Under the pieces are notes generated by a model that saw only the letters and a program-made list of their open reading frames with translations, searched no databases and was not told where the DNA came from. Source: a virus (Duplodnaviria; Heunggongvirae; Uroviricota; Caudoviricetes). Taken from it: DNA of 64,000 nt. The stretch lies in the IMG/VR virus record IMGVR_UViG_3300013902_000267. One strand, given 5' to 3'. A program made the translations under genes and the position numbers. Below, piece by piece: positions 6,870-64,000 of the stretch. How positions within the stretch are numbered: the first letter of the stretch is position 1; the number at the start of each line of letters is the position of its first letter.

Positions 6870-6942
6870 TTATTATTGGTAATAAGTGGCAAAACATGCT
6901 AGGAATAGTAAGTTATCGGTTCGAACCCGATATAATAAAGAT
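6870..6942 (+). tRNA. tRNA-like element (canonical T-arm and 7-bp acceptor stem; D and anticodon arms unresolved)
   Basis: Acceptor TTATTAT/ATAATAA. T-arm ATCGG-TTCGAAC-CCGAT. I could not fold a convincing anticodon arm. Possible degenerate or atypical tRNA. Confidence 0.3.
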
Positions 6943-8109: not shown

Positions 8110-9580
8110 TATTAAAGAAAATAATTTTTTCATTCCTAGAAAAATTGCTGTAGGATTTGTAAAAAGAGCAAATACATATTCAGGAAAGTTATCTTATATT
8201 ACTTATTATGATAATACTAATAAATTACGTAAGGACGTATCTTGGAATGGTTGGAGAGATAAAAATATAGAACCTGTATATACGGATAATATTCCAACAA
8301 CAGGTTTTATTATTAATAAACGTGCAGGAGGCGAAAAATGGGGATGGAACCAAAGAGCAACATATGCGCGTATATATGATCCAAGAGGGTTTGAATTTGA
8401 GATAACTATAGATAATCTTCTTTGGATTCTGGAATATACTAATTCAGAAAACAAGGAATTAAAAGGACAATTTGTATATAGTTGGTATGGAACTGAACTT
8501 GTACTTATGCCTATTGTTTCATCTGATTATGAAGAATCTAAACGTTTATCTGAACAACAATATAATAAAACATCGTTTAAAGAACGCGATTTAATTCCTG
8601 GAACACTTTATAAAATGAAAGGTAAGGAATTAAATGAATTGGTATATATTGGTAAAGTAAAAGTATCTACTGAATTCAATATGTCTTATGTTAATAAATT
8701 AGCATTTGTACCTATACAGGATTCTTGGAAGTTATATTCACATTATGATAAAAATATCAACAGATCTGATTTCTTTATATTTAAAAGTGTTTCGTCTGTT
8801 ATAGCAGAAATGCAACAAAATTATTTTAGTGACGATATTGTAAAAGAATATCTACATAGATTTGATATGTGCGCGTATTCATATAATTTCTGGAATAATT
8901 TTGGTAATTTCATTGATAAATTTGTTTCTGACCATCCATGTATAATGAATGATTATAAAAAACCATATAAGATAGAATATAATAGATATAGCACAGAGAA
9001 GAATAATTATAATAATATTATTGATAAATTCGAATATAATGGTATAAAGTTAGATTCATTAAGAATTATTCCTGAATGGTTAATCCAAACAGACAGAGAA
9101 CACATATTTTATGAAAATACAAGTGTATTAAAATCAGTTATATCCGATGATGGTAAATCCGTATTGATAAAAGATCAATATCCTACTATAGAAAAGATTA
9201 ATACATTTAATAGGATTGTATATAAACGAATGTATGATTTCATGAATATTGATTTAAATACAAATACATTTAATAAAATATGTGATCCCGGATTGTGGGA
9301 TGAATATAGAGGTCATCATTCTTGCGAAGTATCAAATATTATATATAAGCATCCATCAGAAACTACAGATGTTCAGAAAGCAAGAGAAATTAATACTCAG
9401 GTTTCATTAAATGATAACAGAACATTCTTATATTATATAACGAAGGATAATTATATATCTATATCATTACAGGAAATGATACGGAATCATCGTTATATGA
9501 AATTCGGTTTCTCGAATGGTATAGATGAGAATAAATGGGTAACATTAGATGTAATATTGTTACCAAAAAAGATTAAGTAA
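8102..9580 (+). CDS. Hypothetical protein (492 aa)
   Basis: Long intact ORF in the standard code. Confidence 0.5.
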   Translation: MNNIKENNFFIPRKIAVGFVKRANTYSGKLSYITYYDNTNKLRKDVSWNGWRDKNIEPVYTDNIPTTGFIINKRAGGEKWGWNQRATYARIYDPRGFEFEITIDNLLWILEYTNSENKELKGQFVYSWYGTELVLMPIVSSDYEESKRLSEQQYNKTSFKERDLIPGTLYKMKGKELNELVYIGKVKVSTEFNMSYVNKLAFVPIQDSWKLYSHYDKNINRSDFFIFKSVSSVIAEMQQNYFSDDIVKEYLHRFDMCAYSYNFWNNFGNFIDKFVSDHPCIMNDYKKPYKIEYNRYSTEKNNYNNIIDKFEYNGIKLDSLRIIPEWLIQTDREHIFYENTSVLKSVISDDGKSVLIKDQYPTIEKINTFNRIVYKRMYDFMNIDLNTNTFNKICDPGLWDEYRGHHSCEVSNIIYKHPSETTDVQKAREINTQVSLNDNRTFLYYITKDNYISISLQEMIRNHRYMKFGFSNGIDENKWVTLDVILLPKKIK

Positions 9581-38202: not shown

Positions 38203-38982
38203 TTAAACTTTATCTTGACTAAATATATTATATGAAATATTAAATTCTTTCTCGTTATTTGTTATATTTTTAATAGTACCGAATTCATCTATCATAAATC
38301 CAGCTCTACAATCCAAACATGCATATGTTTCTCTAAATATAGGTGTTTCTTGTTGTTGTGTATGTCCAAATATCTGATAATAAATATCATCTAATTTATT
38401 ATCTTCATATTGTAATTCGCATTCATCAGCCCAAAGTATTGAACCGTATTTAGAATACCCTCCACGTGCATATCCTACATAATCAAAAACTTTTGCTAAC
38501 TTTTGATTATCATGTTTCCGTATAAGTTCATTTAAATATGTAATAGAATCATAAATATTCTTATGTTTTATTTCACCTACATATTCGTTTTTCCATTGAT
38601 TACCAATACATGAATGACTAAATGTTACCATACAATCATTTATCATTCTGTATGTAACTACTTTAAAATATTTTATATTATCAATAAACAATTTACGATA
38701 TTCATCAGCATGCTCATAATCATATCGCGATCTAGATAAAAATTTCTTGCTGATATATTGTATATCATGATTTCCTAATAATAGTGTTACTTTATCAATA
38801 TTTTTAGATTTAAAATCAAGAATTTCTTTGAAATTACTTATAGCATCATCTATAGTTATTCCTTCATATCTATATGGATCCAAATAATCACCTAAGAATA
38901 TAATTTCATCACATTCTTGATTCACACATTCTTTCCAAAATGTACGTCCATGAATATCCGGTATAATTATAATTTTACTCAT
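38203..38982 (-). CDS. Calcineurin-like metallophosphoesterase
   Basis: 'IIIPDIHGRTFW', 'FLGDYLDP', 'LGNHD' motifs. Confidence 0.6.
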   Translation of the reverse strand: MSKIIIIPDIHGRTFWKECVNQECDEIIFLGDYLDPYRYEGITIDDAISNFKEILDFKSKNIDKVTLLLGNHDIQYISKKFLSRSRYDYEHADEYRKLFIDNIKYFKVVTYRMINDCMVTFSHSCIGNQWKNEYVGEIKHKNIYDSITYLNELIRKHDNQKLAKVFDYVGYARGGYSKYGSILWADECELQYEDNKLDDIYYQIFGHTQQQETPIFRETYACLDCRAGFMIDEFGTIKNITNNEKEFNISYNIFSQDKV

Positions 38983-42043: not shown

Positions 42044-43555
42044 TTAATTAGTTTCATTTTCTGATGATTGTTCATCTTCAATATTAGTTATACCTGCATC
42101 TAATTCTTTTTCTTCCTTATTAACAAAACGATAGCACTTCAATTTGAATGCACGAGGTATCATATCATCTATTTTAATTACAACACCTTCATGTGGAACT
42201 TTATTATTACATTCAGGTGATAACATTTCCATATAAAAATTCTTATCACTTGACATCTTATTCCAAAAATTTTCGTGCCAATGATTAGTTATATCAAGCT
42301 CAGGATACAAATCTTTAGCTTTACCATAATAATATTCAATTACAGGTGTTAATTCATGTTGAATACACCATACTTGTACTTCTCGTGGTGAAAATTCATG
42401 TACATCTCCATCAACATTTGTTAAAGTAATACGATATATCATTATCTTAAAATGCTTTCCATATGTATACTCTTCACCAGACTTTAAAGGTACACATCCA
42501 TAATCATATCCCTTTTGTATATAATTATTATTTGGAAGATAACCTACAATTTCTGCATAAATCATCATTCCCTTTATCATGTGTGGCTTTAATACATTAA
42601 ATGCTTCACCCCATATATCAAAATTATAGAATCCCTTATGATATACATTACCATTTTTTTCAGATTCCTTCATTATATACTGGTTTTTTATAACAGTTCT
42701 TGATGAATATAAATAATCATAATCATTAAATTCATAACCTGTTAAAAATTTCGCAATTTTCTGCTTTATAGTTAATTGTTTCTTACATAAAACATAACCA
42801 ACACAAAGAGAAGTACCGTGCCATTTAGAACTTATATGTATATAATCATTAGGTTGAACAACAAATGGAACCTTCTTAACAAGTGCAGTGTCGTAATGGA
42901 ACCTAAATTGTTCTGGTATAACTCTGTTAAATCTCTTTAACTTTCGTTGTCTTCTCTTATATCTAGATTGATCACCTCCAGTTTTATTTCTCTTTATAAA
43001 TATCTTTGGTATAAATTTCTTTGATAACCAAAATGATTTACCATTATGTTCAATAGTATCAAACCATGTTCCATCCTTTATATCATTCTCATTAACTTCT
43101 ATATTAAAATTATCTAATATAAAATTAAGAACTACTTGTAATTCTATCAAGAAACCATCTGATACACCATTAGGTAAAAATACTTTTTCAACTTCTCCAG
43201 TAGATGGATCAATTTTATCCATTGTTGCTCGTAGTCTAATGGACTTCACTCTACCATTATCATCAAATAACCCAGTTTTATTAGGATTACTATTCATTTC
43301 ATTTTTACGATATAAATTAGCATATCTTAAAAATTCAGGATTTATTTGTGTACTTGATGGAAAGAATACATATTTTCCTGGTTGTGAATCCTTACTTACT
43401 ATAACATTATAAATTGTATCTCCACCTATTCTACAACACTTTAACTTGTTAACTTCAGGATTAGGATGTGGAGAGAAATCCTCTTCCTTGATATAAATTA
43501 CACGTGAAACATAATTAGGGTGTAATTCACTTTCCTTCGACTTAATAAACTTCAT
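42044..43555 (-). CDS. RNA ligase, Rnl2-like nucleotidyltransferase (KxHG motif I) with an N-terminal extension
   Basis: Motif I 'SSKWHGTS' resembles T4 Rnl2 'KIHGTN'. Motif IV 'HEGVVIKID'. Motif V 'AFKLKCYRF'. 503 aa. Confidence 0.6.
   Translation of the reverse strand: MKFIKSKESELHPNYVSRVIYIKEEDFSPHPNPEVNKLKCCRIGGDTIYNVIVSKDSQPGKYVFFPSSTQINPEFLRYANLYRKNEMNSNPNKTGLFDDNGRVKSIRLRATMDKIDPSTGEVEKVFLPNGVSDGFLIELQVVLNFILDNFNIEVNENDIKDGTWFDTIEHNGKSFWLSKKFIPKIFIKRNKTGGDQSRYKRRQRKLKRFNRVIPEQFRFHYDTALVKKVPFVVQPNDYIHISSKWHGTSLCVGYVLCKKQLTIKQKIAKFLTGYEFNDYDYLYSSRTVIKNQYIMKESEKNGNVYHKGFYNFDIWGEAFNVLKPHMIKGMMIYAEIVGYLPNNNYIQKGYDYGCVPLKSGEEYTYGKHFKIMIYRITLTNVDGDVHEFSPREVQVWCIQHELTPVIEYYYGKAKDLYPELDITNHWHENFWNKMSSDKNFYMEMLSPECNNKVPHEGVVIKIDDMIPRAFKLKCYRFVNKEEKELDAGITNIEDEQSSENETN
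42066..42092. repeat. 27-nt repeat (copy B, 3' end of the Rnl2-like gene)
   Basis: Identical to 40860..40886. Confidence 0.8.
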
Positions 43556-43657
43556 ACTAGATTTAATTTTATTTTCCTATGTCATTCTTTAGTTCGAGTC
43601 TCCACTACTCACGTATCACCAGATTATTTTTTAATAGGAAAATAATCAAACCTATTA

Positions 43658-46125: not shown

Positions 46126-46938
46126 TCATTTTATTGGAATTTTTGATGTTTTTTCAAAGATTTTTCTATTGTTTTCATCATTAAGTATATACCCACTGTG
46201 AATAACAAATTTATCTCTATCAAACTCCCCATATTCATCTGATTTCATATGAACAGTTTCCTTATATACAAATCTTCCATATTTCTTTCCATCATCAAAT
46301 GTATTCCAATCAATATCAGTTGATTCTTTCAAAATATCTATAAGTTCATCTGCTTTCTTTGATGTACATTCCTTATGTGACAAATAAGTTCTTACTGTTT
46401 GTTGCTTGCTGTTTCTTATACAATCAAGTTGTCTATATAAGAACCATGTATAAACATCATTATATGATGGAACATTCCATGCTTTACAATCGAACTCATG
46501 TAATTTTATATTATTAATAATATCAATAAGTTCAGATTTACTGAATTGCTCTTTACATGTTCTATTAATTGCTTCAATAATCATTAATTGATTAAACTTA
46601 GATGTTGCCATTGATGCACATAGTGGTAATATTTTCTCCAATCTATAACCAAAAAATGAATCTGTTTCTGGTGTATCAAAATCCGTAATAACAAGAGATA
46701 TTTCATCTGACTGGACATATGCGAATTTACATCCTTGTATACATTCACATAAATATCTTGCGGTTTCATTCATAATATTAATGAATGTATCATCAAATGG
46801 TTTCTTGAAATATTTTTTAATGGTTGATGAAAATGATCTACCGTCTAACATAACCATTACATAACTATTTGGCATTAACTTATAATCTGTTAAACCACGA
46901 AGATATAGCATTCTATCTTCAATATTCTTAAATTTCAT
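46126..46938 (-). CDS. Thg1-like 3'-5' nucleotidyltransferase (tRNA-His guanylyltransferase family, TLP)
   Basis: 'VMVMLDGRSFSSTIKKYFKKPFDD' resembles Thg1 'VVVRLDGRNFHRF..KPND'. 'AYVQSDEISLVI' resembles 'AYGQSDEYSFVF'. The track ORF starts at 46980; the ATG at 46938 is more plausible. Confidence 0.6.
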   Translation of the reverse strand: MKFKNIEDRMLYLRGLTDYKLMPNSYVMVMLDGRSFSSTIKKYFKKPFDDTFINIMNETARYLCECIQGCKFAYVQSDEISLVITDFDTPETDSFFGYRLEKILPLCASMATSKFNQLMIIEAINRTCKEQFSKSELIDIINNIKLHEFDCKAWNVPSYNDVYTWFLYRQLDCIRNSKQQTVRTYLSHKECTSKKADELIDILKESTDIDWNTFDDGKKYGRFVYKETVHMKSDEYGEFDRDKFVIHSGYILNDENNRKIFEKTSKIPIK

Positions 46939-54264: not shown

Positions 54265-55302
54265 TTATGCTTGATACGAATACTTGTCAAACAATGATTC
54301 AATATTAGAGGGATGCACAGCATTTATGCCGATTTCATTGCATTTTTTCAATGTATCATGGAAATCATCTATAAGACATACATCCTTAACATTCCACTTC
54401 ATTTTATGAGCAAACTGCTCAATAAAAACGTGCTTATAATTTTTATTTCCGACAAACATTCGGTTCTCAACAGGAATCTCTGGGAAATATTTATCAAGCC
54501 ATTCATTCTTCTCATTCCACGCTATTGAATTAGCACATGCAGTCACAATATAAACATTCTTCATGTCATAATGTTTCTTAACAAAATCAATGATATGTTT
54601 AACAGGCTTCAAATTTTTAAATAGTTCGCTACTTACAAAATCTGAATTTCCGTTAATATCAAGTTTTGCCTTGCCATAACAAGCTAATGTACCATCCATG
54701 TCAAGAAGTAAATACTTATTGGTAAAATAATCAACGCGAATGAATTCATCTACCAATGGGATGTACTTATTCTTACATGCTTCAATACGTAAATTTTTCT
54801 TATAAATATCTTCAATTGGAACTTTACGAGTTCTTCCTTGAAGTCTATTTATACAAACTTCTACAGGAGTATCAAAGAATATACAAGTAATCTTATCTAC
54901 ATTTTTATTTCTTAAATAATCTATAATACTAAGATTATAATGATTATTAATTCCACCGCCGTCAAGAATAACATTACAATTAATCTTTGAACTATCTGCA
55001 ATAGCAAAAATTATTTTTCGTGTTATTTGAACCGACTCTTCATGAACAACTTCCGGATGTTCATCAGTATAACCTTTTAACAATGGTTTAATTTCATCAG
55101 CAGAAATTACTATTGTTTCATTTATACAAAGATTATCTTCAATTGTCTGAATAATTTTATCTAAATTACATTCATCAAATGGTTTATCTAAAATAGATGT
55201 TAACCATTCAATGAGATGCAAAATATTTGGATAATTCTCTTGAAGATATGTACTTTTACCAGATGCAGGCAAACCGAGGAAGTACGAGAACTTACTGATC
55301 AT
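54265..55302 (-). CDS. pnk: Polynucleotide 5'-kinase/3'-phosphatase (T4 Pnk-like)
   Basis: N-terminal P-loop 'GLPASGKSTY'. C-terminal HAD phosphatase 'LLLDMDGTLA' resembles T4 'IFDVDGTLA'. 'CLIDDFHDTLKKCNEIGINAV' resembles T4 '[23 protein letters not shown]'. Confidence 0.7.
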   Translation of the reverse strand: MISKFSYFLGLPASGKSTYLQENYPNILHLIEWLTSILDKPFDECNLDKIIQTIEDNLCINETIVISADEIKPLLKGYTDEHPEVVHEESVQITRKIIFAIADSSKINCNVILDGGGINNHYNLSIIDYLRNKNVDKITCIFFDTPVEVCINRLQGRTRKVPIEDIYKKNLRIEACKNKYIPLVDEFIRVDYFTNKYLLLDMDGTLACYGKAKLDINGNSDFVSSELFKNLKPVKHIIDFVKKHYDMKNVYIVTACANSIAWNEKNEWLDKYFPEIPVENRMFVGNKNYKHVFIEQFAHKMKWNVKDVCLIDDFHDTLKKCNEIGINAVHPSNIESLFDKYSYQA

Positions 55303-55327: not shown

Positions 55328-56911
55328 TTAGTCAACAGTTCCATCAAGAAGTTTATGAACTGCATCTTGACGAGTCTTTCGGATTTCAGCAAGTGTAAAC
55401 TCTCTTACTAACTTACCATCTTCAAAAACAGTCTTCAATTCATTCTTATCTGATGCTTCCTCTTCAGGCGTTACACGATCAACTGGTACATACTTACCAT
55501 TACCATCTTTTACAACCATAAGAAGTCCACGATGTGATTTCTTTGGCATACCGCATACTGTTTTAGGATCCTTATAAATTTCTATAGGTTTGCCATTAAC
55601 TTTACACCATGTAGACTTACAGGCTATGCCTAAAGAATCTCTGGATCGTACATTATAAGTAAAGCTTCCTATACCTTCAATAAGGTTAGTTGCTGCGAAA
55701 CCCTTATCTTCAAGTTGAGAATATGTATCCTTTTGGCGTTTCATATTAATTGAGTCTCCATAAAGAAGTCCAATATGTGGATCAAGAATTTTATATCCTT
55801 TTTCATTAAATGTTCCACCGAACGTATTCCAAAGAAATTCATAAGAACCCATCTTTACAAATGGATCTTCTGCTTCCGGATCACCACAAATAATTTTAAC
55901 AGGATCACCACTATCAGGACGAATTACTACACGCCCATTACGAGACATAATTTGTTCTTTATACTTAGGAACAATCTTTGTCAAGAAATACCAATAATCA
56001 TAACCATCTGCAACAATTGAAATAATACCATCTGGAAATTCATCAAGCATATTCTTAAAATAAACTTCATCATTTGGCTTACCTGTTTCATCTGTTGCAT
56101 TAGAGCACTCAATAGAATGTTCAGTAGCTGGAACAGTTGCAGCTATCAATTCTTTTTTAGGATCTGCATTATAATAATACTCAATCATCTTAATTGCTGG
56201 AACTGTTTCAGAACCACAAAAAGAAGTAAGATGTGCCATACCAGAAACAATAGATGCTTCAAATGAACTCATTCCTCTCATAGAGAAATCATGACATAGA
56301 AATGCAAGATTAGACATATCGTTAGGATTATAAAAACCAGTTTTCATAGCATGTCTAACAAGTTCACGTTTAAATACATCAGCTGTTGTTGCAGAAGTAA
56401 TTGGAAGCCAAAGGACATTTGAAGTCAAAGACTCCAAATAATTTGTGAGCCAAGCAAAATCAGGATGTGTATTTGTGATTGTTAAAATAGGGCATCCGAT
56501 TGGACAATATGAACCTTCAGGAAGTGCCTTAATACGAATAGGAAGATAACCAAGTTTATGCAATGCAATAATATGATCAACCCCTACTTTCTTTGCAACT
56601 GCTTCTCCTAGAAATGTAGTTGTCAAATCTGTATAAGTTTTTCGTACAGTATCTTCATCAAGATTAAAGAAATAATTATTAAATGTATTAATAAGATACT
56701 TCTTAATAAAATACTGAATACCAAACACAACTGCTCCCTCTGTAGCTTCCGGAAAATATTTATTACTACGAGGAGTAAAGTTACTGAAAAGTTGCGTCAT
56801 TCCCTTAGGGTACATACAGTGATGACCAAGCTTGTAGCCATCTGTCATAAGCATTGCATTAAGAAGTATGTCTTCTACCAATACATGCTGTGAATCTTTT
56901 ACGTTTGTCAT
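55328..56911 (-). CDS. nadV: Nicotinamide phosphoribosyltransferase-family protein (NadV/NAMPT-like; a Namat-type enzyme cannot be excluded)
   Basis: 'MLMTDGYKLGHHCMYP' resembles the NAMPT N-terminal 'DSYKVTHYKQYP'. 527 aa. Confidence 0.65.
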   Translation of the reverse strand: MTNVKDSQHVLVEDILLNAMLMTDGYKLGHHCMYPKGMTQLFSNFTPRSNKYFPEATEGAVVFGIQYFIKKYLINTFNNYFFNLDEDTVRKTYTDLTTTFLGEAVAKKVGVDHIIALHKLGYLPIRIKALPEGSYCPIGCPILTITNTHPDFAWLTNYLESLTSNVLWLPITSATTADVFKRELVRHAMKTGFYNPNDMSNLAFLCHDFSMRGMSSFEASIVSGMAHLTSFCGSETVPAIKMIEYYYNADPKKELIAATVPATEHSIECSNATDETGKPNDEVYFKNMLDEFPDGIISIVADGYDYWYFLTKIVPKYKEQIMSRNGRVVIRPDSGDPVKIICGDPEAEDPFVKMGSYEFLWNTFGGTFNEKGYKILDPHIGLLYGDSINMKRQKDTYSQLEDKGFAATNLIEGIGSFTYNVRSRDSLGIACKSTWCKVNGKPIEIYKDPKTVCGMPKKSHRGLLMVVKDGNGKYVPVDRVTPEEEASDKNELKTVFEDGKLVREFTLAEIRKTRQDAVHKLLDGTVD

Positions 56912-59043: not shown

Positions 59044-59147
59044 ATTTTATTTTAAATAAAAAAGAGATATAACAAAATAATCTGTTATACCTCTTATAAA
59101 ATATATCTTAAAATAATAAAAAATTACATAATATATTGTAAAAGCAT

Positions 59148-60137
59148 CTATGTTTCCTCATCAGCTTTTAATTTTGGATATGCAGCTCTAAGTATCTGTA
59201 ATACACGTGTTTCTGTCATTCCATGTTCTTCTGCAACTTGCCATGTATTCTTTTCACCACGTCCATTAATACCATAGCAATCACATACAATTTCACCATC
59301 TCTTTCACCAAGAACTCTCTTTACATTATCTTCAAGTTCTCTTTCAAGATCAGCGTTATTAAGATTACTATCAGGGTCTTTAAATGTCCTATTAGCTGTT
59401 ACATCACCTAATGTTGTTTTAGAATCATCATCATCCCCGTATGATTTATCCAAACTATTTGCACGTGTATTTGCTTCCATTGTTTGTGCAAATGTTTCAT
59501 ATTTCAAATCTGGATGTTTCTTTACGAGAACATTATAAATATCATCAATATCAGGTTCATAACCATTCTTATTATATAATTGATCCTTGATACGAGCGGC
59601 TTCACGAGCAATACTACCCATATTACGGGGAACTGCCATATGTCCACCTACCTCATCAACAGCAGTCATAATTTCTCTACGAATATACCAAATAGCATAA
59701 GAAACAAAACGTACATCTTTACCTGGCAAACTTGGATCATATGTATCTGCTGCTTGCATAAGTCCTATATTTCCATATTGAATCATATCTTCCTTTGGTA
59801 TATTAATATTTTTATACTTATTGACAACAGAAATAACAAATGGAAGATTTGCGGACACCAACTTATTCTTTGCCTTTTCAATTTCTCTCTTATTATCAGA
59901 ATGTTGAATAATATCAGCAAGTTTCACTTCATCTGCATGTGATAATTGTTTTTTCTTATTAATAGCATGTAAATATGCAATAGTAGACTTTGCTGTATTT
60001 TCATCCTGTGTAATAGCAAAATCATCATGCAAATCCATATGCATTCCATTATTAGCTTCATTGAGTTTCTTTCTAATAGTCTTAGAAACATTTCTCATGA
60101 TACTTTCATACAATGTCTTCTTTTCATTTAACTTCAT
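59148..60137 (-). CDS. Sigma-70 family RNA polymerase sigma factor
   Basis: Region 2 'GNIGLMQAADTYDPS...RFVSYAIWYIRREI'. Region 4 'TWQVAEEHGMTETRVLQILRAAYPKLK'. 329 aa. Confidence 0.7.
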   Translation of the reverse strand: MKLNEKKTLYESIMRNVSKTIRKKLNEANNGMHMDLHDDFAITQDENTAKSTIAYLHAINKKKQLSHADEVKLADIIQHSDNKREIEKAKNKLVSANLPFVISVVNKYKNINIPKEDMIQYGNIGLMQAADTYDPSLPGKDVRFVSYAIWYIRREIMTAVDEVGGHMAVPRNMGSIAREAARIKDQLYNKNGYEPDIDDIYNVLVKKHPDLKYETFAQTMEANTRANSLDKSYGDDDDSKTTLGDVTANRTFKDPDSNLNNADLERELEDNVKRVLGERDGEIVCDCYGINGRGEKNTWQVAEEHGMTETRVLQILRAAYPKLKADEET

Positions 60138-60186
60138 ATCTTGATAAAAATTATTTCAATATTTTAAATATTTATCTTAAAATAAA

Positions 60187-60231: not shown

Positions 60232-60789
60232 TTATTCTATATTTAATATTTGTTTAATCTTTACTATGTCATCCTGTGTTATACCTGAATAACTATCTAT
60301 TTTTATAAAGTTATCCTGTTGATATGTCATCATATCATCATCGTCATCTACTATACAATAATCTATTCTTAATTCATCATCTTTAAATTTAAAATAATCT
60401 TCATCATAAAATTGTTTATAGTTTCGCACATTTGTATTTCCGCTATACATAAGGAAATAATGAATTTCATTTCCTCTTATTGAGTGTTCATCATGATATT
60501 TTGGTGTTATACCTACTATATATTTAATTAAACATTTCAAATCTTTATACTTATCAAACGCATATTTTGTTGCTTCTAATGAAATCTCTCTCCATGACGA
60601 TGATATAACTAATCTTACATTATAATTCTCACATAATTGTTCTATAAGTTTTACTGCATTTTTGTCTACAAAATGATCACCATTTTCTTCATTTATATAT
60701 TTCTTTCCTTCCTTTGTAAAACACCAATTCGCATATTGTTCAGAATTCAAAACACCGTCTATGTCTAAAAATAATATTTTTATATTCAT
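60232..60789 (-). CDS. HAD-superfamily phosphatase
   Basis: 'ILFLDIDGVLN' HAD motif I. 185 aa. Confidence 0.55.
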   Translation of the reverse strand: MNIKILFLDIDGVLNSEQYANWCFTKEGKKYINEENGDHFVDKNAVKLIEQLCENYNVRLVISSSWREISLEATKYAFDKYKDLKCLIKYIVGITPKYHDEHSIRGNEIHYFLMYSGNTNVRNYKQFYDEDYFKFKDDELRIDYCIVDDDDDMMTYQQDNFIKIDSYSGITQDDIVKIKQILNIE

Positions 60790-60792
60790 TTA

Positions 60793-61116
60793 TTAATCTT
60801 CATCAAAATTATCATATATTGAAATCTTATTCTTCCTACGTTCTTTCTTAGGTTCTATACAAGGAAAACAATACTCTCCTACATGCTTTATATATCTTTC
60901 ATTCGTATATGTTGGTTCACCTTTAAAATTAAAATTCCGTTGTTCACCATATGCAATATGTTTCTTTTTCTTCCATTTAACAACTTTATCTTTCTGTACT
61001 TCTATATCTTGTAAATCCTTATGTTTATTCTTTACTTTAAATTTTTTATCACATTCTACTACAAAACTAGATGAACCCTTATTTACTTTATGTGTTTGAT
61101 GATAACTTCTTGACAT
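60793..61116 (-). CDS. Hypothetical basic protein
   Basis: 107-aa ORF. Confidence 0.35.
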   Translation of the reverse strand: MSRSYHQTHKVNKGSSSFVVECDKKFKVKNKHKDLQDIEVQKDKVVKWKKKKHIAYGEQRNFNFKGEPTYTNERYIKHVGEYCFPCIEPKKERRKNKISIYDNFDED

Positions 61117-61132
61117 AATATAAATTTTTTAT

Positions 61133-61444
61133 TTATAATCTTTCTATATTTATAACTTTATCTGCTAATAATGGTTTTAATGTTTTATTAAACGTGTTTT
61201 CACTTATAGAAATTTTTTTATATCTTAATTTATATTCTCGTGTATTACTTTCAAAAGGATTATTTACTTCATATTTTAATTCAGAAGCAAAATATATTGT
61301 ATAATATATATTTGGTCTAACAGAATCATATGTTCTACTTATATTCTTTTCTATATATACAATGGATTTAATAGGTAAAATTATATTACTACATTTTATA
61401 TATTCTATATTATTTCCTTTACTATGATTTTTAAATTTTATCAT
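61133..61444 (-). CDS. Hypothetical protein
   Basis: 103-aa ORF. Confidence 0.35.
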   Translation of the reverse strand: MIKFKNHSKGNNIEYIKCSNIILPIKSIVYIEKNISRTYDSVRPNIYYTIYFASELKYEVNNPFESNTREYKLRYKKISISENTFNKTLKPLLADKVINIERL

Positions 61445-61448
61445 TTTA

Positions 61449-61853
61449 CTAAATATATCTTAAATCATCTGCATAATCGCACATATCTAAAAATTCATTT
61501 TGAAGTTCACTATCTATAATAGTAAATGCTCTGACTTCATCATATGATTTCTTGTCTGGAATAACATCACACCAATCTGCATCCACATCATATACTTTAT
61601 GCGTCGCTGTAGACATAACACGAATCATTGTTTTTTCTTTATATTCTTGTGTATATCCTAACGGTCCATATTCGTTAACTAATACTGTTTTCTTAAATGG
61701 CTTCATAATACATACAAGTCTTGTATTCATTTCATCTTTCTCACATGAATACATTCCTGGTATAAGCAATACTCTTTTACCTGTTGTTACATTTATATTA
61801 TATTCACAGTTACTTCTGAGAAATATCAAATCACCAATATTAAAGCACATCAT
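61449..61853 (-). CDS. Hypothetical protein
   Basis: 134-aa ORF preceded by promoter-motif copy 4. Confidence 0.4.
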   Translation of the reverse strand: MMCFNIGDLIFLRSNCEYNINVTTGKRVLLIPGMYSCEKDEMNTRLVCIMKPFKKTVLVNEYGPLGYTQEYKEKTMIRVMSTATHKVYDVDADWCDVIPDKKSYDEVRAFTIIDSELQNEFLDMCDYADDLRYI

Positions 61854-61888
61854 AATTCTTTATATTTTTAATTGTTTATATTCTTATT

Positions 61889-61911
61889 TTATTAACAATA
61901 CAAAGATACAC
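61889..61911 (-). promoter_or_regulatory. Conserved promoter-like motif (GTGTATCTTTGTATTGTTAATAA), copy 4
   Basis: Followed by AATAAGAATATAAACAATTAAAAATATAAAGAATT and then the ATG. Confidence 0.55.
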
Positions 61912-62091
61912 ATTATTTTTGATATAAAAAAGAAAACATAAAGAAATATCAATTTTTATAGTAAAAACAATTAAAATTCTATAGAAATCTTATTAAATTT
62001 TATAATATTTTTTAAACAAGTATAGATAAGAAAAGTCTACCATGACTTACATCATAATAGACTTATAGTACATCTTTAAAAATAATATCTG

Positions 62092-62187
62092 TGGATATAG
62101 ATGGACTCGAACCACCATGTATCTGCCCTAGAATTATGATACAAACTAACATCATATTAGTCGCGTTTACCATTTCGCCATATATCC
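62092..62187 (-). tRNA. Type II (long-variable-arm) tRNA, about 96 nt. The anticodon loop TATGATG gives TGA (Ser) if canonical, but position 33 is atypical
   Basis: Acceptor GGATATA/TATATCC. T-arm GGTGG-TTCGAGT-CCATC. Anticodon stem ACTAA/TTAGT. Unusually long variable arm (stem TGTATC/GATACA with a 14-nt loop). Confidence 0.45.
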
Positions 62188-62193
62188 ATATAG

Positions 62194-62266
62194 CAGGCCT
62201 GATGAGATTCGAACTCACAACAACATGATTAAAATTCGTGTGCTCTACCAATTGAGCTACAGGCCC
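62194..62266 (-). tRNA. tRNA-Lys (anticodon TTT)
   Basis: 5' GGGCCTGTAGCTCAATTGGTAGAGCA... T-arm GTGAG-TTCGAAT-CTCAT. Anticodon loop ATTTTAA. 73 nt. One C-A mismatch in the anticodon stem. Confidence 0.65.
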
Positions 62267-62374
62267 AAAGTTCTATTTTAAATTTCCACGCAATAGAACT
62301 CCGAAGATTTGTAGATCTGTGTTCATGGTACTTAATCTAATGCTTGTTTTTAATACTGACGTGTTAACCTCTTC

Positions 62375-62470
62375 ACCAAATCCCCGATTAAATAATATGT
62401 AATAGAGGGGATTCATGGGTTCGAACCATGGATAATCAGTAAAATCATGATATATCACGAATGACACCAT
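62375..62470 (-). ncRNA. tRNA-like fragment: T-arm (CATGG-TTCGAAC-CCATG) plus acceptor 3' strand, with its complement GGGGATT placed downstream. Degenerate, permuted or unusual tRNA
   Basis: The minus strand reads ...CATGGTTCGAACCCATGAATCCCC-(21 nt)-GGGGATT... I could not fold a canonical cloverleaf. Confidence 0.25.
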
Positions 62471-62682
62471 GACAATCTACGTTAACTGTAATACTAAAGC
62501 TCTTGACTCAATGCTAACGCTAAAATCTAGGATTCTGTTTATGCTAAATGTAATCAAGCTAATGCTTTAGTCAATTTACATATGTTATATATGATATTAT
62601 ATTCAAAGTCTATTATTCATATCAAAAATATTTTTAAGAAATAAATATCATAAATGAATCGATAACATTTATTATATAATAT

Positions 62683-63897
62683 ATGAATAAGAATTATAAC
62701 AAACTATATGAAGAAATGATGTCAGATATTTCAGTTATCGTTAAAAAGAAAATAAATGAAGCATATGACAATCAGCTTCTCGAAGAATATGGTGCAAAGG
62801 ATATGTTTAATGATATTATGAAAGAAGCATCAAAAGAAGGTAAAATCTTTTATAAGCATCTTAAATAGTTTATAATTTATATCATCAAAAAATTACAAGA
62901 GACAGATCAATATAAAAAAGCTGAAAAACTTATGAATGCGTATGTTCAGAAAGTACAGAAATATATTGATGAACATAAGAAGATTACTCCGAGACGTATG
63001 TTGAAAATTACTGTTGCTGTATTGACAATGTATGGAGGTGTTTCAATGATACAAGATTGTAAATAGATGATTAAATCTTTATAGGGTAATGTTGAAACTT
63101 ATGAATAGAAAGTAGAAAATGTACCGGATGAAAAGCAACAAGAAGTAATAGTAGAAGAACCTGAAGATTTTGTTGTTGAAGTTAAAGATGAAGCAAAAGA
63201 AAAATTAAGTGTCAAGAAAGTATCTACTGAAGATATTAATAATACACCTGAAAAGAAATTTAAGGAAGACAAGAATTTCAATTTTAAGTCAAGCAACGAG
63301 GCTCGCGAATTTATTAAACATCATGAGTTATGCTTACTTTACCCTTATTACGCAAAACCCGAAGAGGAAGCAAAAGGAATGGTAACTATTGGTTATGGTC
63401 ATGTTGTATTGGAATCAGATGGTGAATTATACAAGAAAGTATAGCAATTAAAAAAGAAAGGCTTAATTAAACAATCATTTGTTACAAAAAATGGTAAAAC
63501 TATTTTAAACCCTAATCATTGTAAAACCATTATAACAAAGACTGACGCAGATAAATTATTTTAGAAAGATATTAAGATTGCTGAATAGCGTGCATATAGA
63601 ACTATACAAAATATGCCTACTGATGATGATAATGTTAAATATTATATGTTATATAATCAAAAAATAAGAGATGGTTTAACATCATTATGTTATAATGCTG
63701 GATAGCTTAAACATGAAAAATATACATTCATAACAAAAGGTCTTGCAAAATCTAGATATGATTATCAAGCATAGAAAATAAATGCAGGTGATTATAATGT
63801 ATCCTTTAAATATTTCAAGAATATTAAAGATAATCCTAACAGAAGAAATGAGGAATATAAGTTATTCTTTATGAACGCAAATAAGTCTATGTCATAA
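62683..63897 (+). CDS. T4-type lysozyme (GH24) endolysin with a long N-terminal extension containing a TM segment (membrane-anchored or SAR-like); TAG-recoded (about 12 TAG). Alternative starts at 62932 and 63067
   Basis: Single frame. '...HHELCLLYPYY...GMVTIGYGH' matches the T4L catalytic Glu and 'TIGIGH' regions. 'LAKSRYDYQAQ' resembles 'LAKSRWYNQ'. 'PNRRNEEYKLF' resembles 'PNRAKRVITTF'. TM 'ITVAVLTMYGGVSMI' about 110 aa upstream of the catalytic domain. Confidence 0.65.
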
Positions 63898-63922
63898 TAA
63901 AAAATAAATTTTAATTAAATAT

Positions 63923-64000
63923 ATGAAAAAATTATTTGAAGCAAAATAGAAGCCATTAGTTGTTTATAATCCTGCTGATATTTTCATGAAATATAATATG
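63923..64000 (+). CDS. Hypothetical protein, 5' partial at the window end; contains an in-frame TAG
   Basis: ATG 63923 'MKKLFEAK-Q-KPLVVYNPADIF...'. Runs off the window. Confidence 0.3.

What the first reader, a model, noticed from the sequence alone, without database searches (positions are those of the whole stretch)
62092..62470. tRNA cluster with an atypical 96-nt tRNA and an apparently permuted or degenerate tRNA-like element
Next to a canonical tRNA-Lys(TTT) sits a type II tRNA with a 6-bp stem and 14-nt loop in its variable arm and a non-canonical anticodon loop (TATGATG). About 130 nt upstream on the same strand is a perfect T-arm plus acceptor 3' strand (..CATGGTTCGAACCCATGAATCCCC). 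Its complementary 5' strand GGGGATT lies downstream of it rather than upstream. This recalls a permuted tRNA gene or a tRNA-derived structured RNA. A similar T-arm-plus-acceptor relic is at 6870-6942. In a TAG-recoding phage, unusual tRNAs are prime suppressor candidates.
Basis: seen in the sequence. Interest (0 to 1): 0.5.

Follow-up and report, generated by a model that had tools for sequence, protein, structure and literature searches.

The report
Permuted tRNA-like RNA with partner tRNA
This megaphage carries a small three-RNA operon: a structured RNA built around a tRNA body whose two halves are encoded in swapped order, an ordinary lysine tRNA, and an odd tRNA-like RNA; the same trio is conserved in other large gut phages, matches no RNA family in the Rfam library, and did not turn up in my literature searches.

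Summary
The window is Prevotella megaphage Lak-B7. All features lie on the minus strand and form one unit: promoter-like site, a ~310-nt RNA, tRNA-Lys(UUU), a 96-nt tRNA-like RNA, terminator-like hairpin.

The T arm plus 3' acceptor strand sit 20 nt upstream of the 5' acceptor strand plus D arm. Covariation in 18 distinct homologues supports the acceptor pairing (6 of 7 pairs change on both sides, 0/500 shuffles). An anticodon-stem helix and a two-part long-range helix also covary. The anticodon loop is replaced by a ~230-nt domain that holds the transcript's own ends. The spacer varies from 17 to 130 nt.

The family occurs in all Lak lineages and in about 70 other contigs, many 95-190 kb. It fails Rfam tmRNA, permuted-tmRNA and YrlA models.

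In 80 of 82 loci it is followed by a tRNA-like RNA with an invariant UUCUAGG loop. That loop is complementary to an invariant CCUAGA in the permuted RNA. One divergent lineage changes both sides compensatorily.

The topology equals YrlA and two-piece tmRNA. Lak-B7 already has a canonical tmRNA, SmpB and tRNA(CUA).

Most likely it is a processed, two-piece tRNA mimic. Its function is inferred only.

The parts
62596..62625 (-). sigma-70-like promoter match (TTGATA-18-TATAAT), about 15-20 nt upstream of the conserved RNA start
   Evidence: 11 of 12 positions match. The scan is not significant as a whole (12 sites found against 9.9 expected), so this is a weak assignment. Conservation between Lak-B and Lak-A/C starts just downstream of it.
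62267..62574 (-). Permuted tRNA-like structured RNA, whole element (~308 nt from TTGACT to the base before tRNA-Lys)
   Evidence: Conserved block-by-block in Lak-A/B/C and two further Lak lineages, and in about 70 other viral or metagenome contigs. The minimum-free-energy fold recovers the acceptor stem, P2, H3 and H4 (z = -2.2).
62499..62574 (-). 5' domain. Helix Pb is TTGACT (62574-62569) paired with AGTCAA (62508-62503). It encloses ~60 nt that are mostly unpaired and contain the invariant AATCCTAGAT (CCTAGA at 62531-62526). The invariant GAGTCAAGAGC lies at 62509-62499.
   Evidence: RNAalifold consensus. Pb covaries: TCGACT/AGTCGA in L109, U-G wobble in L018 and L295, and a 7th pair gained in L128.
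62466..62480 (-). H3a, the upstream strand of the long-range two-part helix (GTAGAT-TG-TCATGGT)
   Evidence: It pairs with H3b. There are 10 distinct outer and 10 distinct inner helix versions in 13 lineages, and all are fully paired.
62431..62441 (-). 3' strand of P2, the anticodon-stem equivalent (TACTGA, 62441-62436), plus the 5-nt variable loop TTATC
   Evidence: All 5 P2 positions vary, with compensatory changes such as TCAGT/ACTGA, TTTAT/ATAAA, CTAGA/TCTAG, CCAGA/TCTGG and GGTGT/ACACT.
62406..62430 (-). T arm (62430-62414), 3' acceptor strand AATCCCC (62413-62407) and discriminator U (62406)
   Evidence: The discriminator is U in every lineage except L046/L081, where it is G.
62386..62405 (-). 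Variable spacer inside the acceptor stem (20 nt here, 17-130 nt in relatives, not conserved, sometimes with its own hairpin). It is the presumed excised segment.
62354..62385 (-). 5' acceptor strand GGGGATT (62385-62379), U8 G9, D arm (62376-62361, with the A13:A22 mismatch and G18 G19), G26, and the 5' strand of P2 TCAGTA (62359-62354)
62267..62353 (-). 3' domain. It holds linker L1 with the conserved GCW-UUA-NNN-UAA/UGA motif (62353-62330), H3b ACCATGA-ACACAG-ATCTAC (62329-62311), and hairpin H4 (62300-62269).
62193..62266 (-). Canonical tRNA-Lys(UUU), the middle gene of the trio
62092..62187 (-). Atypical 96-nt tRNA-like RNA. It has a 7-bp acceptor stem, A73, D arm, T arm, hairpin H1 (non-conserved loop) and hairpin H2 with the invariant loop core UUCUAGG (62133-62127).
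   Evidence: 35 distinct homologues, all with TTCTAGG and with covarying acceptor stems. It is linked to the permuted RNA in 80 of 82 loci.
62033..62064 (-). Terminator-like hairpin followed by a T-rich tail, directly after the 96-nt RNA. It would close a three-RNA transcription unit.
   Evidence: 1 found against 0.2 expected.

Best explanation
The locus is a self-contained three-RNA operon on the minus strand.

Its first product is a ~310-nt non-coding RNA whose core is a complete class-I tRNA body encoded in circularly permuted order. The order along the gene is:
- anticodon-stem 3' strand, variable loop, T arm, 3' acceptor strand;
- a variable spacer;
- 5' acceptor strand, D arm, anticodon-stem 5' strand.

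Where the anticodon loop would be, the chain runs out into a conserved ~230-nt domain. That domain contains helix H3, hairpins H4 and H5, and a 5' hairpin domain called Pb. It also contains the transcript's own 5' and 3' ends. The RNA therefore cannot decode a codon. This much is shown.

The next steps are inferred.
- The acceptor stem is a full 7 bp and the spacer is long, unconserved and variable. I therefore infer that RNase P cuts 5' of G1, that the 3' side is trimmed, and that CCA is added.
- The two pieces would stay together through the acceptor stem, P2 and H3.
- The same processing is documented for M. smegmatis YrlA and for permuted tmRNA genes.
- The product would be a tRNA mimic with a free acceptor end.
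- The single-stranded CCUAGA in its 5' domain pairs with the invariant UUCUAGG loop of the co-transcribed 96-nt tRNA-like RNA, giving a two-RNA complex.

Function is inferred at low confidence. I think the complex acts on tRNA-handling machinery during infection, either in tRNA damage and repair or in countering tRNA-targeting host nucleases, rather than in decoding.
For: Shown:
- The permuted acceptor pairing, T stem, P2, H3 and Pb all covary across independent lineages.
- The tRNA core elements are all present: U8, A14, G15 with C48, G18 G19, the TTCGA T loop and the A13:A22 mismatch. The D arm and variable loop match ordinary phage tRNA-Cys/Glu/His/Gln genes.
- The spacer ranges from 17 to 130 nt and is not conserved.
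- The sequences following the P2 5' strand are not conserved as an anticodon loop.
- The family is present in five Lak lineages and in about 70 other contigs. Its head-of-tRNA-array position is conserved, as is the order permuted RNA, then Lys-type tRNA, then UUCUAGG tRNA-like.
- No Rfam family matches the permuted core.

Supporting the processing inference:
- PMC4201824 (read) reports that YrlA RNAs have the same T-arm, acceptor hairpin, D-arm order.
- It also reports that the M. smegmatis YrlA, which has a 7-bp acceptor, is cut by RNase P and receives CCA in vivo.
- PMC11915505 describes the same processing for permuted tmRNA genes.
- Lak phages encode their own CCA-adding enzyme (supplement of PMC6784885).

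Supporting the RNA-RNA pairing:
- Both motifs are invariant across lineages that are otherwise divergent.
- The two RNAs co-occur in 80 of 82 loci.
- In L097 the block has TCTCGGT at the homologous position, and the homologous partner has ACCGAGA in its large loop.

Supporting the tRNA-damage context, from genes on the same strand within 25 kb:
- a HAD domain of the 'Swiss Army Knife' RNA-repair proteins (E = 4.7e-18);
- an RNA ligase;
- a Thg1-like enzyme;
- a P-loop kinase fused to a phosphatase.

The middle tRNA has a hypervariable anticodon among close relatives: UUU, CUU, UUC, GUU, AUU and CUA.
Against: - No expression or end-mapping data exist, so a single uncut RNA with a closed acceptor (as in Salmonella YrlA) is not excluded.
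- A 6-7-nt complementarity between the two RNAs is common by chance. Between 27% and 67% of shuffles reach it. The pairing rests on position, invariance and one compensatory lineage only.
- No Ro60/TROVE gene was found among the eight genes tested next to the cluster or in the Lak-A1 KEGG table.
- The YrlA covariance model does not hit the permuted core.
- The RNA-repair genes are neighbours only in Lak. Their presence near the element in the other phages was not examined.
- The extreme nucleotide invariance of the 5' domain has no explanation yet.
Confidence: 0.6

Rival explanations
1. It is a divergent two-piece (permuted) tmRNA. The tRNA-like domain is aminoacylated, enters stalled ribosomes, and a short reading frame in the RNA is translated as a tag.
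For: - The gene order is exactly that of permuted tmRNA genes (PMC11915505).
- In the piece that starts with the 5' acceptor strand, linker L1 carries GCW-UUA-NNN followed by UAA or UGA at a fixed position in 13 of 17 lineage versions tabulated. L036 and L109 stop one codon earlier. Variation looks like third-codon-position change: GCU/GCA, GCA/GCG and UAA/UGA. It reads as A-L-A-stop, as at the end of canonical tags.
- In other phages a canonical tmRNA sits immediately upstream of tRNA-Lys(UUU), at the same array position (L122, L140).
- Lak encodes SmpB.
- Very short tags are known.
Against: - There is no G3:U70. Position 3:70 is G:C or C:G, and the discriminator is U rather than A.
- There is a full D stem instead of the tmRNA D-loop.
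- ARAGORN and the Rfam models tmRNA, alpha/beta/cyano tmRNA and tmRNA_permuted give nothing, even at E<=10.
- Lak-B7 already has a canonical one-piece tmRNA with G3:U70 and tag NDDEIEFRMAA, so SmpB is not orphaned.
- The last 'tag' residue is not conserved (A, D, V, I, T or L).
- L1 is only ~24 nt and is tethered at both ends, which makes threading it through the mRNA channel unlikely.
- The GCWUUAGC motif also recurs in other frames in the 5' domain, which suggests an RNA-level repeat.
Confidence: 0.13
2. It is a YrlA-type Y RNA. The acceptor stem stays closed by the spacer, the RNA is not cut, and it scaffolds a Ro60-like protein with an exonuclease.
For: - The domain order is the same as in YrlA.
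- YrlA RNAs are reported in phages.
- There is a long-range stem (H3) with an asymmetric internal loop between the tRNA-like module and the RNA ends, as in Y RNAs.
- RNA-repair genes lie nearby.
Against: - The only RF02553 match (E = 0.4) lies on H4 plus the tRNA-Lys D arm, not on the permuted core.
- I saw no GNCGAA(N)G motif on the 5' strand when reading the sequence.
- No TROVE protein was found among the neighbours or in the Lak-A1 KEGG table.
- Spacers of up to 130 nt with their own hairpins are unlike a closing loop.
- There is an extra ~110-nt invariant 5' domain.
Confidence: 0.1
3. The 96-nt RNA is a working amber-suppressor tRNA that reads UAG with the CUA in its UUCUAGG loop. The complementarity to the permuted RNA is then either incidental or regulatory (sequestration).
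For: - UUCUAGG has the form U32-U33-CUA-G37-G38.
- It is a 7-nt loop closed by a Watson-Crick pair that itself covaries (A-U to G-C).
- Versions in L109, L075 and L046 are 77-80 nt, with this arm alone at the anticodon position.
- Lak recodes TAG.
- In L046 the neighbouring Lys-type tRNA also has CUA.
Against: - In most lineages the arm sits at the variable-arm position, while a hairpin with a 4-nt loop occupies the anticodon position.
- Its stem is 6-9 bp with bulges instead of 5 bp. In Lak-B the loop is 14 nt.
- From general knowledge of tRNA anticodon loops (not tested here), an invariant G37 and G38 would be unusual for a reader of U-starting codons.
- Lak-B7 has a canonical tRNA(CUA) elsewhere.
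- In L097 the equivalent loop carries ACCGAGA instead.
Confidence: 0.15
4. It is a true permuted tRNA gene that yields a normal linear tRNA after circularisation or ligation, as in the red alga Cyanidioschyzon merolae or in a permuted intron-exon arrangement.
For: The 3' half lies upstream of the 5' half. Remnants of C32 U33 and A37 A38 flank P2 in some non-Lak lineages. Lak encodes RNA ligases.
Against: - No conserved anticodon or splice-site features are present.
- The ~230 nt that would have to be removed are the most conserved part.
- There is no G before the presumed 3' exon and no group I intron match.
- From general knowledge, bacteria lack the splicing endonuclease that such genes rely on.
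Confidence: 0.02

Closest known systems
YrlA (bacterial and phage Y-RNA-like tRNA mimics; Rfam RF02553; Chen et al. 2014, PMC4201824)
   Same: - The tRNA-like module has the same permuted order: T arm, acceptor stem, D arm. The 'anticodon stem' leads to a stem formed by distant parts of the RNA.
- tRNA tertiary-pair nucleotides are kept.
- The M. smegmatis member has a 7-bp acceptor that RNase P cleaves and that receives CCA, giving two pieces.
- It is linked to RNA-repair loci.
   Different: - The RF02553 model does not match the core.
- No Ro60 gene was found nearby.
- No GNCGAA(N)G Ro-binding motif was seen.
- The RNA is ~310 nt rather than ~110 nt.
- It has an extra invariant 5' domain.
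- Its spacer is long and variable rather than a short closing loop.
- It has a dedicated partner tRNA-like RNA.
Two-piece tmRNA from circularly permuted ssrA genes (Rfam RF01849-51, RF04321)
   Same: - The T arm and 3' acceptor strand are encoded upstream of the 5' acceptor strand, with an excised intervening segment.
- The pieces are held together by base pairing.
- It sits in phage tRNA arrays next to tRNA-Lys.
- It has a short A-L-A-stop-like motif downstream of the 5' acceptor half.
   Different: - There is no G3:U70 or A73.
- It has a genuine D arm and anticodon-stem equivalent. I identified no pseudoknots, although I did not search for them systematically.
- No model match was found.
- The putative tag is not under recognisable protein-level constraint.
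- The phage has a separate canonical tmRNA and SmpB.
Permuted tRNA genes of Cyanidioschyzon merolae and other algae
   Same: The 3' half of a tRNA is encoded upstream of the 5' half on the same strand, with a short intervening sequence across the acceptor ends.
   Different: Those genes give ordinary decoding tRNAs through a circular intermediate made by the eukaryotic or archaeal splicing machinery. Here no anticodon loop can be rebuilt, and a large conserved domain occupies that place.
T-box leader / tRNA anticodon recognition (as a functional analogy only)
   Same: An RNA presents a short single-stranded 'codon-like' sequence (CC-UAG-A, with a purine after the triplet) to the anticodon-type loop of a specific tRNA-shaped partner.
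   Different: There is no T-box sequence, Stem I platform or terminator/antiterminator. The partner is a non-canonical tRNA-like RNA, and the pairing would span 5-6 bp.

Membership tests
Canonical decoding tRNA (for the 96-nt RNA, 62092-62187) | Cloverleaf with a 7-bp acceptor stem, D arm and T arm that scores above the tRNA model threshold | tested here: met
   Rfam RF00005 scores 45.3 bits against a gathering score of 29. The acceptor and T stems covary in 35 homologues.
Canonical decoding tRNA (for the 96-nt RNA, 62092-62187) | A conserved 7-nt anticodon loop (U33, purine 37) on a 5-bp stem at the anticodon-arm position | tested here: not met
   The loop at that position is TATGATG in Lak-B and ATAATATTT in Lak-A/C. 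It is a 4-nt loop (ACTG, AATG, GTCA) in other phages. ARAGORN makes no call in Lak-B7.
Amber suppressor tRNA (for the 96-nt RNA) | A CUA anticodon presented in a normal anticodon stem-loop | tested here: inconclusive
   An invariant UUCUAGG loop is present. However, it sits on a 6-9-bp irregular stem, mostly at the variable-arm position, and within a 14-nt loop in Lak-B. A canonical tRNA(CUA) exists elsewhere in the genome.
tmRNA, permuted/two-piece form (for the 62267-62574 RNA) | Circularly permuted gene order with an intervening segment across the acceptor ends | tested here: met
tmRNA, permuted/two-piece form (for the 62267-62574 RNA) | G3:U70 alanine identity pair and A73 | tested here: not met
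   Position 3:70 is G:C, C:G or U:G, with G never paired to U in that orientation. The discriminator is U, or G in one lineage.
tmRNA, permuted/two-piece form (for the 62267-62574 RNA) | Recognition by tmRNA models or detectors | tested here: not met
   ARAGORN finds none. There is no RF00023, RF01849-51 or RF04321 match in 61700-62900 at E<=10. The same library does find the canonical Lak tmRNA elsewhere in the genome.
tmRNA, permuted/two-piece form (for the 62267-62574 RNA) | A tag reading frame with a resume codon and a stop, under coding constraint | tested here: inconclusive
   A GCW-UUA-NNN-UAA/UGA motif sits at a fixed place in 13 of 17 lineage versions. The last residue is not conserved, and the motif also recurs out of frame elsewhere.
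tmRNA, permuted/two-piece form (for the 62267-62574 RNA) | Aminoacylation and SmpB binding | not testable with these tools
   SmpB is encoded at genome 118783-119262. However, a canonical tmRNA partner also exists.
YrlA / bacterial Y RNA | tRNA-like module in the order T arm, acceptor stem-loop, D arm | tested here: met
   compared with the description in PMC4201824.
YrlA / bacterial Y RNA | Match to the RF02553 covariance model | tested here: not met
   The only hit (19.4 bits against a gathering score of 69, E = 0.4) covers 62214-62315. That is H4 plus the tRNA-Lys D arm, not the permuted core.
YrlA / bacterial Y RNA | Encoded next to a Ro60/TROVE gene, with a Ro-binding GNCGAA(N)G motif | tested here: not met
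   The eight neighbouring proteins tested have no TROVE domain. The word 'TROVE' is absent from the Lak-A1 annotation tables that were held, although some of those files are truncated. I did not see the motif when reading the sequence. A genome-wide protein scan was not done.
Permuted tRNA gene (algal type) | The halves can be rejoined into a tRNA with a normal anticodon loop | tested here: not met
   The sequences flanking P2 are not conserved and do not form an anticodon loop. A conserved ~230-nt domain lies in between.

The most novel reading that the evidence does not exclude
The trio is a phage translation-hijacking device of a kind not yet described.
- A tRNA-Cys-like body in two pieces is CCA-tailed and aminoacylated without any anticodon.
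- It docks, through CC-UAG-A, a dedicated CUA-loop tRNA-like partner.
- The complex acts on ribosomes or release factors at UAG codons. One example would be setting the timing of the amber-recoding switch. Another would be rescuing ribosomes at UAG, in a tmRNA-like manner that evolved independently of tmRNA.
Probability: 0.1. Interest if true: 0.95.

Novelty: new variant of a known kind. Interest (0 to 1): 0.7.

Why it matters
Circularly permuted tRNA-like modules are known from only a few RNA classes: two-piece tmRNA, YrlA, and algal tRNA genes. This finding adds a conserved, well-supported family in the largest gut phages (Lak) and in many 95-190-kb gut phage contigs. It always sits at the head of tRNA arrays and is tied to a second non-canonical tRNA-shaped RNA.

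It gives a concrete, testable pair of RNAs for asking how large phages manipulate host tRNA biology, including tRNA-targeting defences, repair and stop-codon recoding.

It also shows that standard annotation (tRNAscan-SE or ARAGORN in the published Lak work, ARAGORN and Rfam here) misses both RNAs, or reports only one of them as an odd tRNA.

Tried and rejected
1. attP or tRNA-fragment relic. Rejected: the downstream 5' acceptor strand covaries with the upstream 3' strand.
2. An ordinary tRNA whose 5' strand lies upstream, or whose 3' strand lies downstream. Rejected: the candidates GTAGATT and AATCTTC are not kept in Lak-A/C.
3. 'Orphan SmpB needs this RNA.' I first found SmpB and no ARAGORN tmRNA. 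A whole-genome Rfam scan then found a canonical tmRNA, which removed this argument.
4. A tag ORF ending ...ESRALALALT in the 5' domain. Rejected: the frame relative to UAG differs between lineages, the stop is absent in L018, and the penultimate codon is free to vary.
5. TTGACT as a -35 promoter box. Rejected: there is no -10 box in most lineages, and TTGACT covaries with AGTCAA.
6. A long 168-codon ORF through the RNA genes when TAG is sense. Rejected as coding: indels between Lak-B and Lak-A/C are not multiples of three.
7. SmpB co-occurrence in the non-Lak phages. Inconclusive, because only the best 80 of 434 hits were returned.
8. TAG or TGA recoding in the non-Lak loci. Inconclusive, because the held loci are mostly tRNA arrays.
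9. The D-arm motif as a family marker. Rejected: it is shared by ordinary phage tRNA-Glu, Gln, His, Cys and Asp genes.
10. Significance of the 6-7-nt inter-RNA complementarity by shuffling. Not significant on its own.
11. The 6870-6942 'relic' as a second permuted element. Not supported.
12. The GenBank phage collection holds the element only in the 15 Lak records. The bacterial genome scan gave only chance hits.
13. Prior description. Text searches of the held paper library for permuted tRNA or tmRNA in phages, Lak tRNA/tmRNA/SmpB, crAss-like tmRNA and YrlA found none. The library omits most subscription-journal papers.
Full report
**Source and orientation.** Window positions 61000-64000 are 100% identical to Prevotella phage Lak-B7 (MK250026.1). 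They are about 80% identical to Lak-A1, A2 and C1. The whole window equals genome 139512-203511. Every feature in the finding lies on the minus strand.

**Checking the observation.**
- ARAGORN and Rfam find a canonical tRNA-Lys(UUU) at 62193-62266 (63.3 bits).
- Rfam, but not ARAGORN, finds a 96-nt tRNA-like sequence at 62092-62187 (45.3 bits).
- Upstream on the same strand lie the T arm CATGG-TTCGAAC-CCATG (62430-62414), the strand AATCCCC (62413-62407), a discriminator U, a 20-nt AT-rich spacer, and then GGGGATT (62385-62379).
- GGGGATT is followed by U8 G9 and a regular D arm, GTGA-AGAGGTTA-ACAC.

**Is the permuted arrangement real?** In Lak-A/C the T stem becomes ACGGG/CCCGT and the acceptor becomes GGGCGAT/ATTGCCC.

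Pattern searches of public collections recovered the element widely.
- It occurs in five Lak lineages.
- It also occurs in about 70 further viral or metagenome contigs, many 95-190 kb and mostly from human gut.

Across 41 unique sequences the upstream 3' strand and the downstream 5' strand always form 7 of 7 pairs, with at least eight different stems. On an 18-sequence alignment the formal count gives the following.
- 6 of 7 acceptor pairs and 4 of 5 T-stem pairs change on both sides.
- 99.3% of cells are paired, and 0 of 500 shuffles reach any observed measure.
- Pairing falls to 30-62% when the partner columns are slid.

Alternative partners that would make an ordinary tRNA are not conserved.

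**Rest of the fold.**
- The segment just after the D arm (TCAGTA, 62359-62354) pairs with the segment just before the variable loop (TACTGA, 62441-62436). This helix, P2, has the position and length of an anticodon stem. All five of its pairs covary.
- Beyond P2 the two strands separate and meet again in a two-part helix, H3 (62480-62466 with 62329-62311). Thirteen lineages show ten different versions of each half, all fully paired.
- The 3' side ends in hairpin H4 (62300-62269), whose stem covaries between Lak-B and Lak-A/C.
- The 5' side starts with a ~75-nt domain closed by TTGACT/AGTCAA. That helix covaries in L109 (TCGACT/AGTCGA), shows U-G wobble in L018 and L295, and gains a pair in L128.
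- An energy-only fold of the 315-nt transcript recovers the acceptor stem, P2, H3 and H4 (z = -2.2).

Topologically this is a full tRNA body whose anticodon loop has been replaced by a ~230-nt domain containing the RNA's own ends.

**Origin of the tRNA body.** The D arm and variable loop (CATTC or CATCC in many non-Lak members) match ordinary phage tRNA-Cys, Glu, His and Gln genes. The discriminator is U in all lineages but one. Among the phage tRNA genes compared, U73 occurs in the tRNA-Cys genes. From memory, and therefore only as a lead, the non-Lak acceptor GGCGCGU/ACGCGCC plus U73 equals that of E. coli tRNA-Cys.

**The spacer.** It is 17-130 nt long, unconserved, and sometimes carries its own hairpin. 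A long variable insert in a perfect 7-bp acceptor stem is what permuted tmRNA genes have (PMC11915505). PMC4201824 reports that M. smegmatis YrlA has the same T-arm, acceptor, D-arm order and a 7-bp acceptor. It reports that this RNA is cut by RNase P and receives CCA in vivo. I therefore infer, but cannot show, a two-piece mature RNA with a free CCA end. Lak encodes its own CCA-adding enzyme.

**The 96-nt RNA.** I collected 35 distinct homologues.
- All have covarying 7-bp acceptor stems, A73, and D and T arms.
- All carry an invariant TTCTAGG.
- The hairpin at the anticodon-arm position has a non-conserved loop. It is a 4-nt loop in many phages, so it is not an anticodon loop.
- TTCTAGG sits in the second hairpin, closed by an A-U or G-C pair in most lineages. 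Lak-B is an exception, with an A/G juxtaposition and a 14-nt loop.
- In three lineages (L046, L075, L109) this is the only arm, and the RNA is 77-80 nt.
- The loop reads as U33-CUA-G37, like an amber-suppressor loop, but the stem is 6-9 bp and irregular.
- Lak-B7 has a separate canonical tRNA(CUA) and a tRNA(UUA), in line with PMC8346664.

**Link between the two RNAs.** 80 of 82 loci that hold the permuted RNA and enough downstream sequence have a TTCTAGG RNA within 1.5 kb.
- UCUAGG is complementary to the invariant CCUAGA (62531-62526), which lies in the unpaired interior of the 5' domain.
- In the divergent L097 lineage the block carries TCTCGGT at the homologous position. The downstream homologue of the 96-nt RNA (same D arm) carries ACCGAGA in its large loop.
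- As a caution, a 6-7-nt complement between sequences of this size appears in 27-67% of shuffles. The case rests on position, invariance, linkage and one compensatory lineage.

**Transcription unit.** A promoter-like match lies at 62625-62596, and a terminator-like hairpin at 62064-62033 sits right after the 96-nt RNA. Together they would bracket the three RNAs. The promoter match is weak in this AT-rich DNA.

**tmRNA hypothesis.**
- For: the permuted order; the position upstream of tRNA-Lys, where canonical tmRNAs sit in other phages; a GCW-UUA-NNN-UAA/UGA motif at a fixed place in linker L1; and SmpB at genome 118783-119262.
- Against: no G3:U70; U73; a real D arm; no detector or model match; an unconserved last codon; and a short, doubly tethered L1.
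- A whole-genome Rfam scan also found a canonical Lak tmRNA at genome 415981-416390, with G3:U70 and tag NDDEIEFRMAA. ARAGORN had missed it. SmpB is therefore not orphaned.

**YrlA hypothesis.** The topology is the same. However, the RF02553 model does not hit the core, no Ro60/TROVE gene was found among the neighbours or in the held annotation tables, and the RNA is three times larger.

**Context.** The minus-strand genes within about 25 kb downstream of the cluster include several RNA-handling enzymes.
- A HAD domain of the 'Swiss Army Knife' RNA-repair proteins (60232-60789).
- A sigma factor.
- NAMPT (assigned from my reading of the translated sequence, not from a database search).
- A P-loop kinase fused to a phosphatase (54265-55302).
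- A Thg1-like enzyme (46126-46938).
- An RNA ligase (42044-43585).

The middle tRNA of the trio keeps its body but changes its anticodon among close relatives: UUU, CUU, UUC, GUU, AUU and CUA. This is suggestive of pressure from tRNA-targeting nucleases. It is the basis for my low-confidence functional guess.

**Prior description and verdict.** Nothing in Rfam 15 matches the permuted core. Searches of the held literature found no description of it. The Lak papers report only tRNAs, tRNA introns and suppressors. I rate it a new variant of a known kind, namely the permuted tRNA-like module RNAs. The structural conclusion has high confidence and the functional conclusion low confidence.

Noticed in passing
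L005:1705-1779 (Lak-B3; also L006 and L008), the homologue of window 62193-62266: In several Lak-B genomes the tRNA-Lys has one extra T in its anticodon loop (AATTTTTAATC). This makes an 8-nt loop, which ARAGORN reports as anticodon 'tttt'. It could be a real expanded-loop variant or a homopolymer assembly difference.
   Followed up: no
Downstream of the permuted RNA in L020, L021, L023, L024, L035, L036, L043, L046: The tRNA that follows the permuted RNA keeps a nearly identical body but has different anticodon loops in close relatives. They read as UUC, UUU, GUU, AUU, CUU and, in L046/L081, CUA. Some loops are irregular, such as CGTTTAA.
   Followed up: partly
L197:15981-16390 (Lak-B7 genome 415981-416390, outside the window): This is a canonical one-piece tmRNA (Rfam 47.3 bits, E = 3e-15) with G3:U70 and tag NDDEIEFRMAA. 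ARAGORN missed it, and the Lak papers I read do not mention it. It lies 2 kb from the canonical tRNA(CUA). SmpB is at genome 118783-119262.
   Followed up: partly
L036:8342-8430 (+), similar in L041, L045, L093; L119 minus strand near position 8223, also L160: Other permuted tRNA-like cores with different sequences lack the TTGACTAAAGC domain.
- L036 has CTGGG-TTCAACT-CCCAG, CAACCTC, a 20-nt spacer, GAGGTTG and then a D arm.
- L119 has GTAGG-TTCGAAT-CCTAC, CTCCCCA, a 16-nt spacer, TGGGGAG and then a D arm, with an ACTGG/CCAGT P2 helix.
Permuted tRNA bodies may be a broader feature of phage tRNA arrays.
   Followed up: partly
L020, L022, L024, L035, L036 and others, 10-40 nt upstream of the UUCUAGG tRNA-like RNA; repeated further downstream in L022 and L035: A recurring hairpin has a conserved loop, (C/T)TGGTCTG(T/C)GAAGATAGG, flanked by complementary arms. 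It could be a processing signal, a promoter, or another small RNA motif.
   Followed up: no
window 38203-60789, minus strand: This stretch holds a cluster of RNA-end-healing and repair-type genes:
- metallophosphatase (38203-38982);
- RNA ligase PF09414 (42044-43585);
- Thg1-like (46126-46938);
- AAA_33 kinase plus NT5C phosphatase (54265-55302);
- HAD_SAK_2 (60232-60789).
A region 55328-56911 reads as NAMPT by eye only, and a sigma-70 factor lies at 59124-60155.
   Followed up: partly
window 6915-6931 (+): A T-arm-like hairpin, ATCGG-TTCGAAC-CCGAT, lies in an intergenic stretch. No tRNA-model match appears at E<=10, and there is no D arm or credible acceptor partner.
   Followed up: yes
window 62063-62566 (-): If TAG is read as sense, a 168-codon frame stays open right through the permuted RNA, tRNA-Lys and the 96-nt RNA. 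Frame-breaking indels between Lak lineages argue that it is not coding. Gene callers using code 15 may nonetheless annotate a spurious protein here.
   Followed up: partly
L189:33499-33690 (Lak-B7 genome ~133499-133690, about 6 kb before the window start): The 5' acceptor strand of tRNA-Thr(UGU), GCTGAAT, is repeated 28 nt after the end of the gene. This may relate to the 'tRNA-Thr intron that may encode a tRNA' noted in PMC6784885.
   Followed up: no
Lak-B7 genome 30616-30714, 30934-31027, 125290-125381, 424133-424216, 424808-424922 (loci L190, L189, L197): Several other over-long tRNA-like genes (84-115 nt) have extra arms or inserts. Examples are a 92-nt tRNA-Trp and an 84-nt tRNA-Cys with long variable arms.
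   Followed up: no
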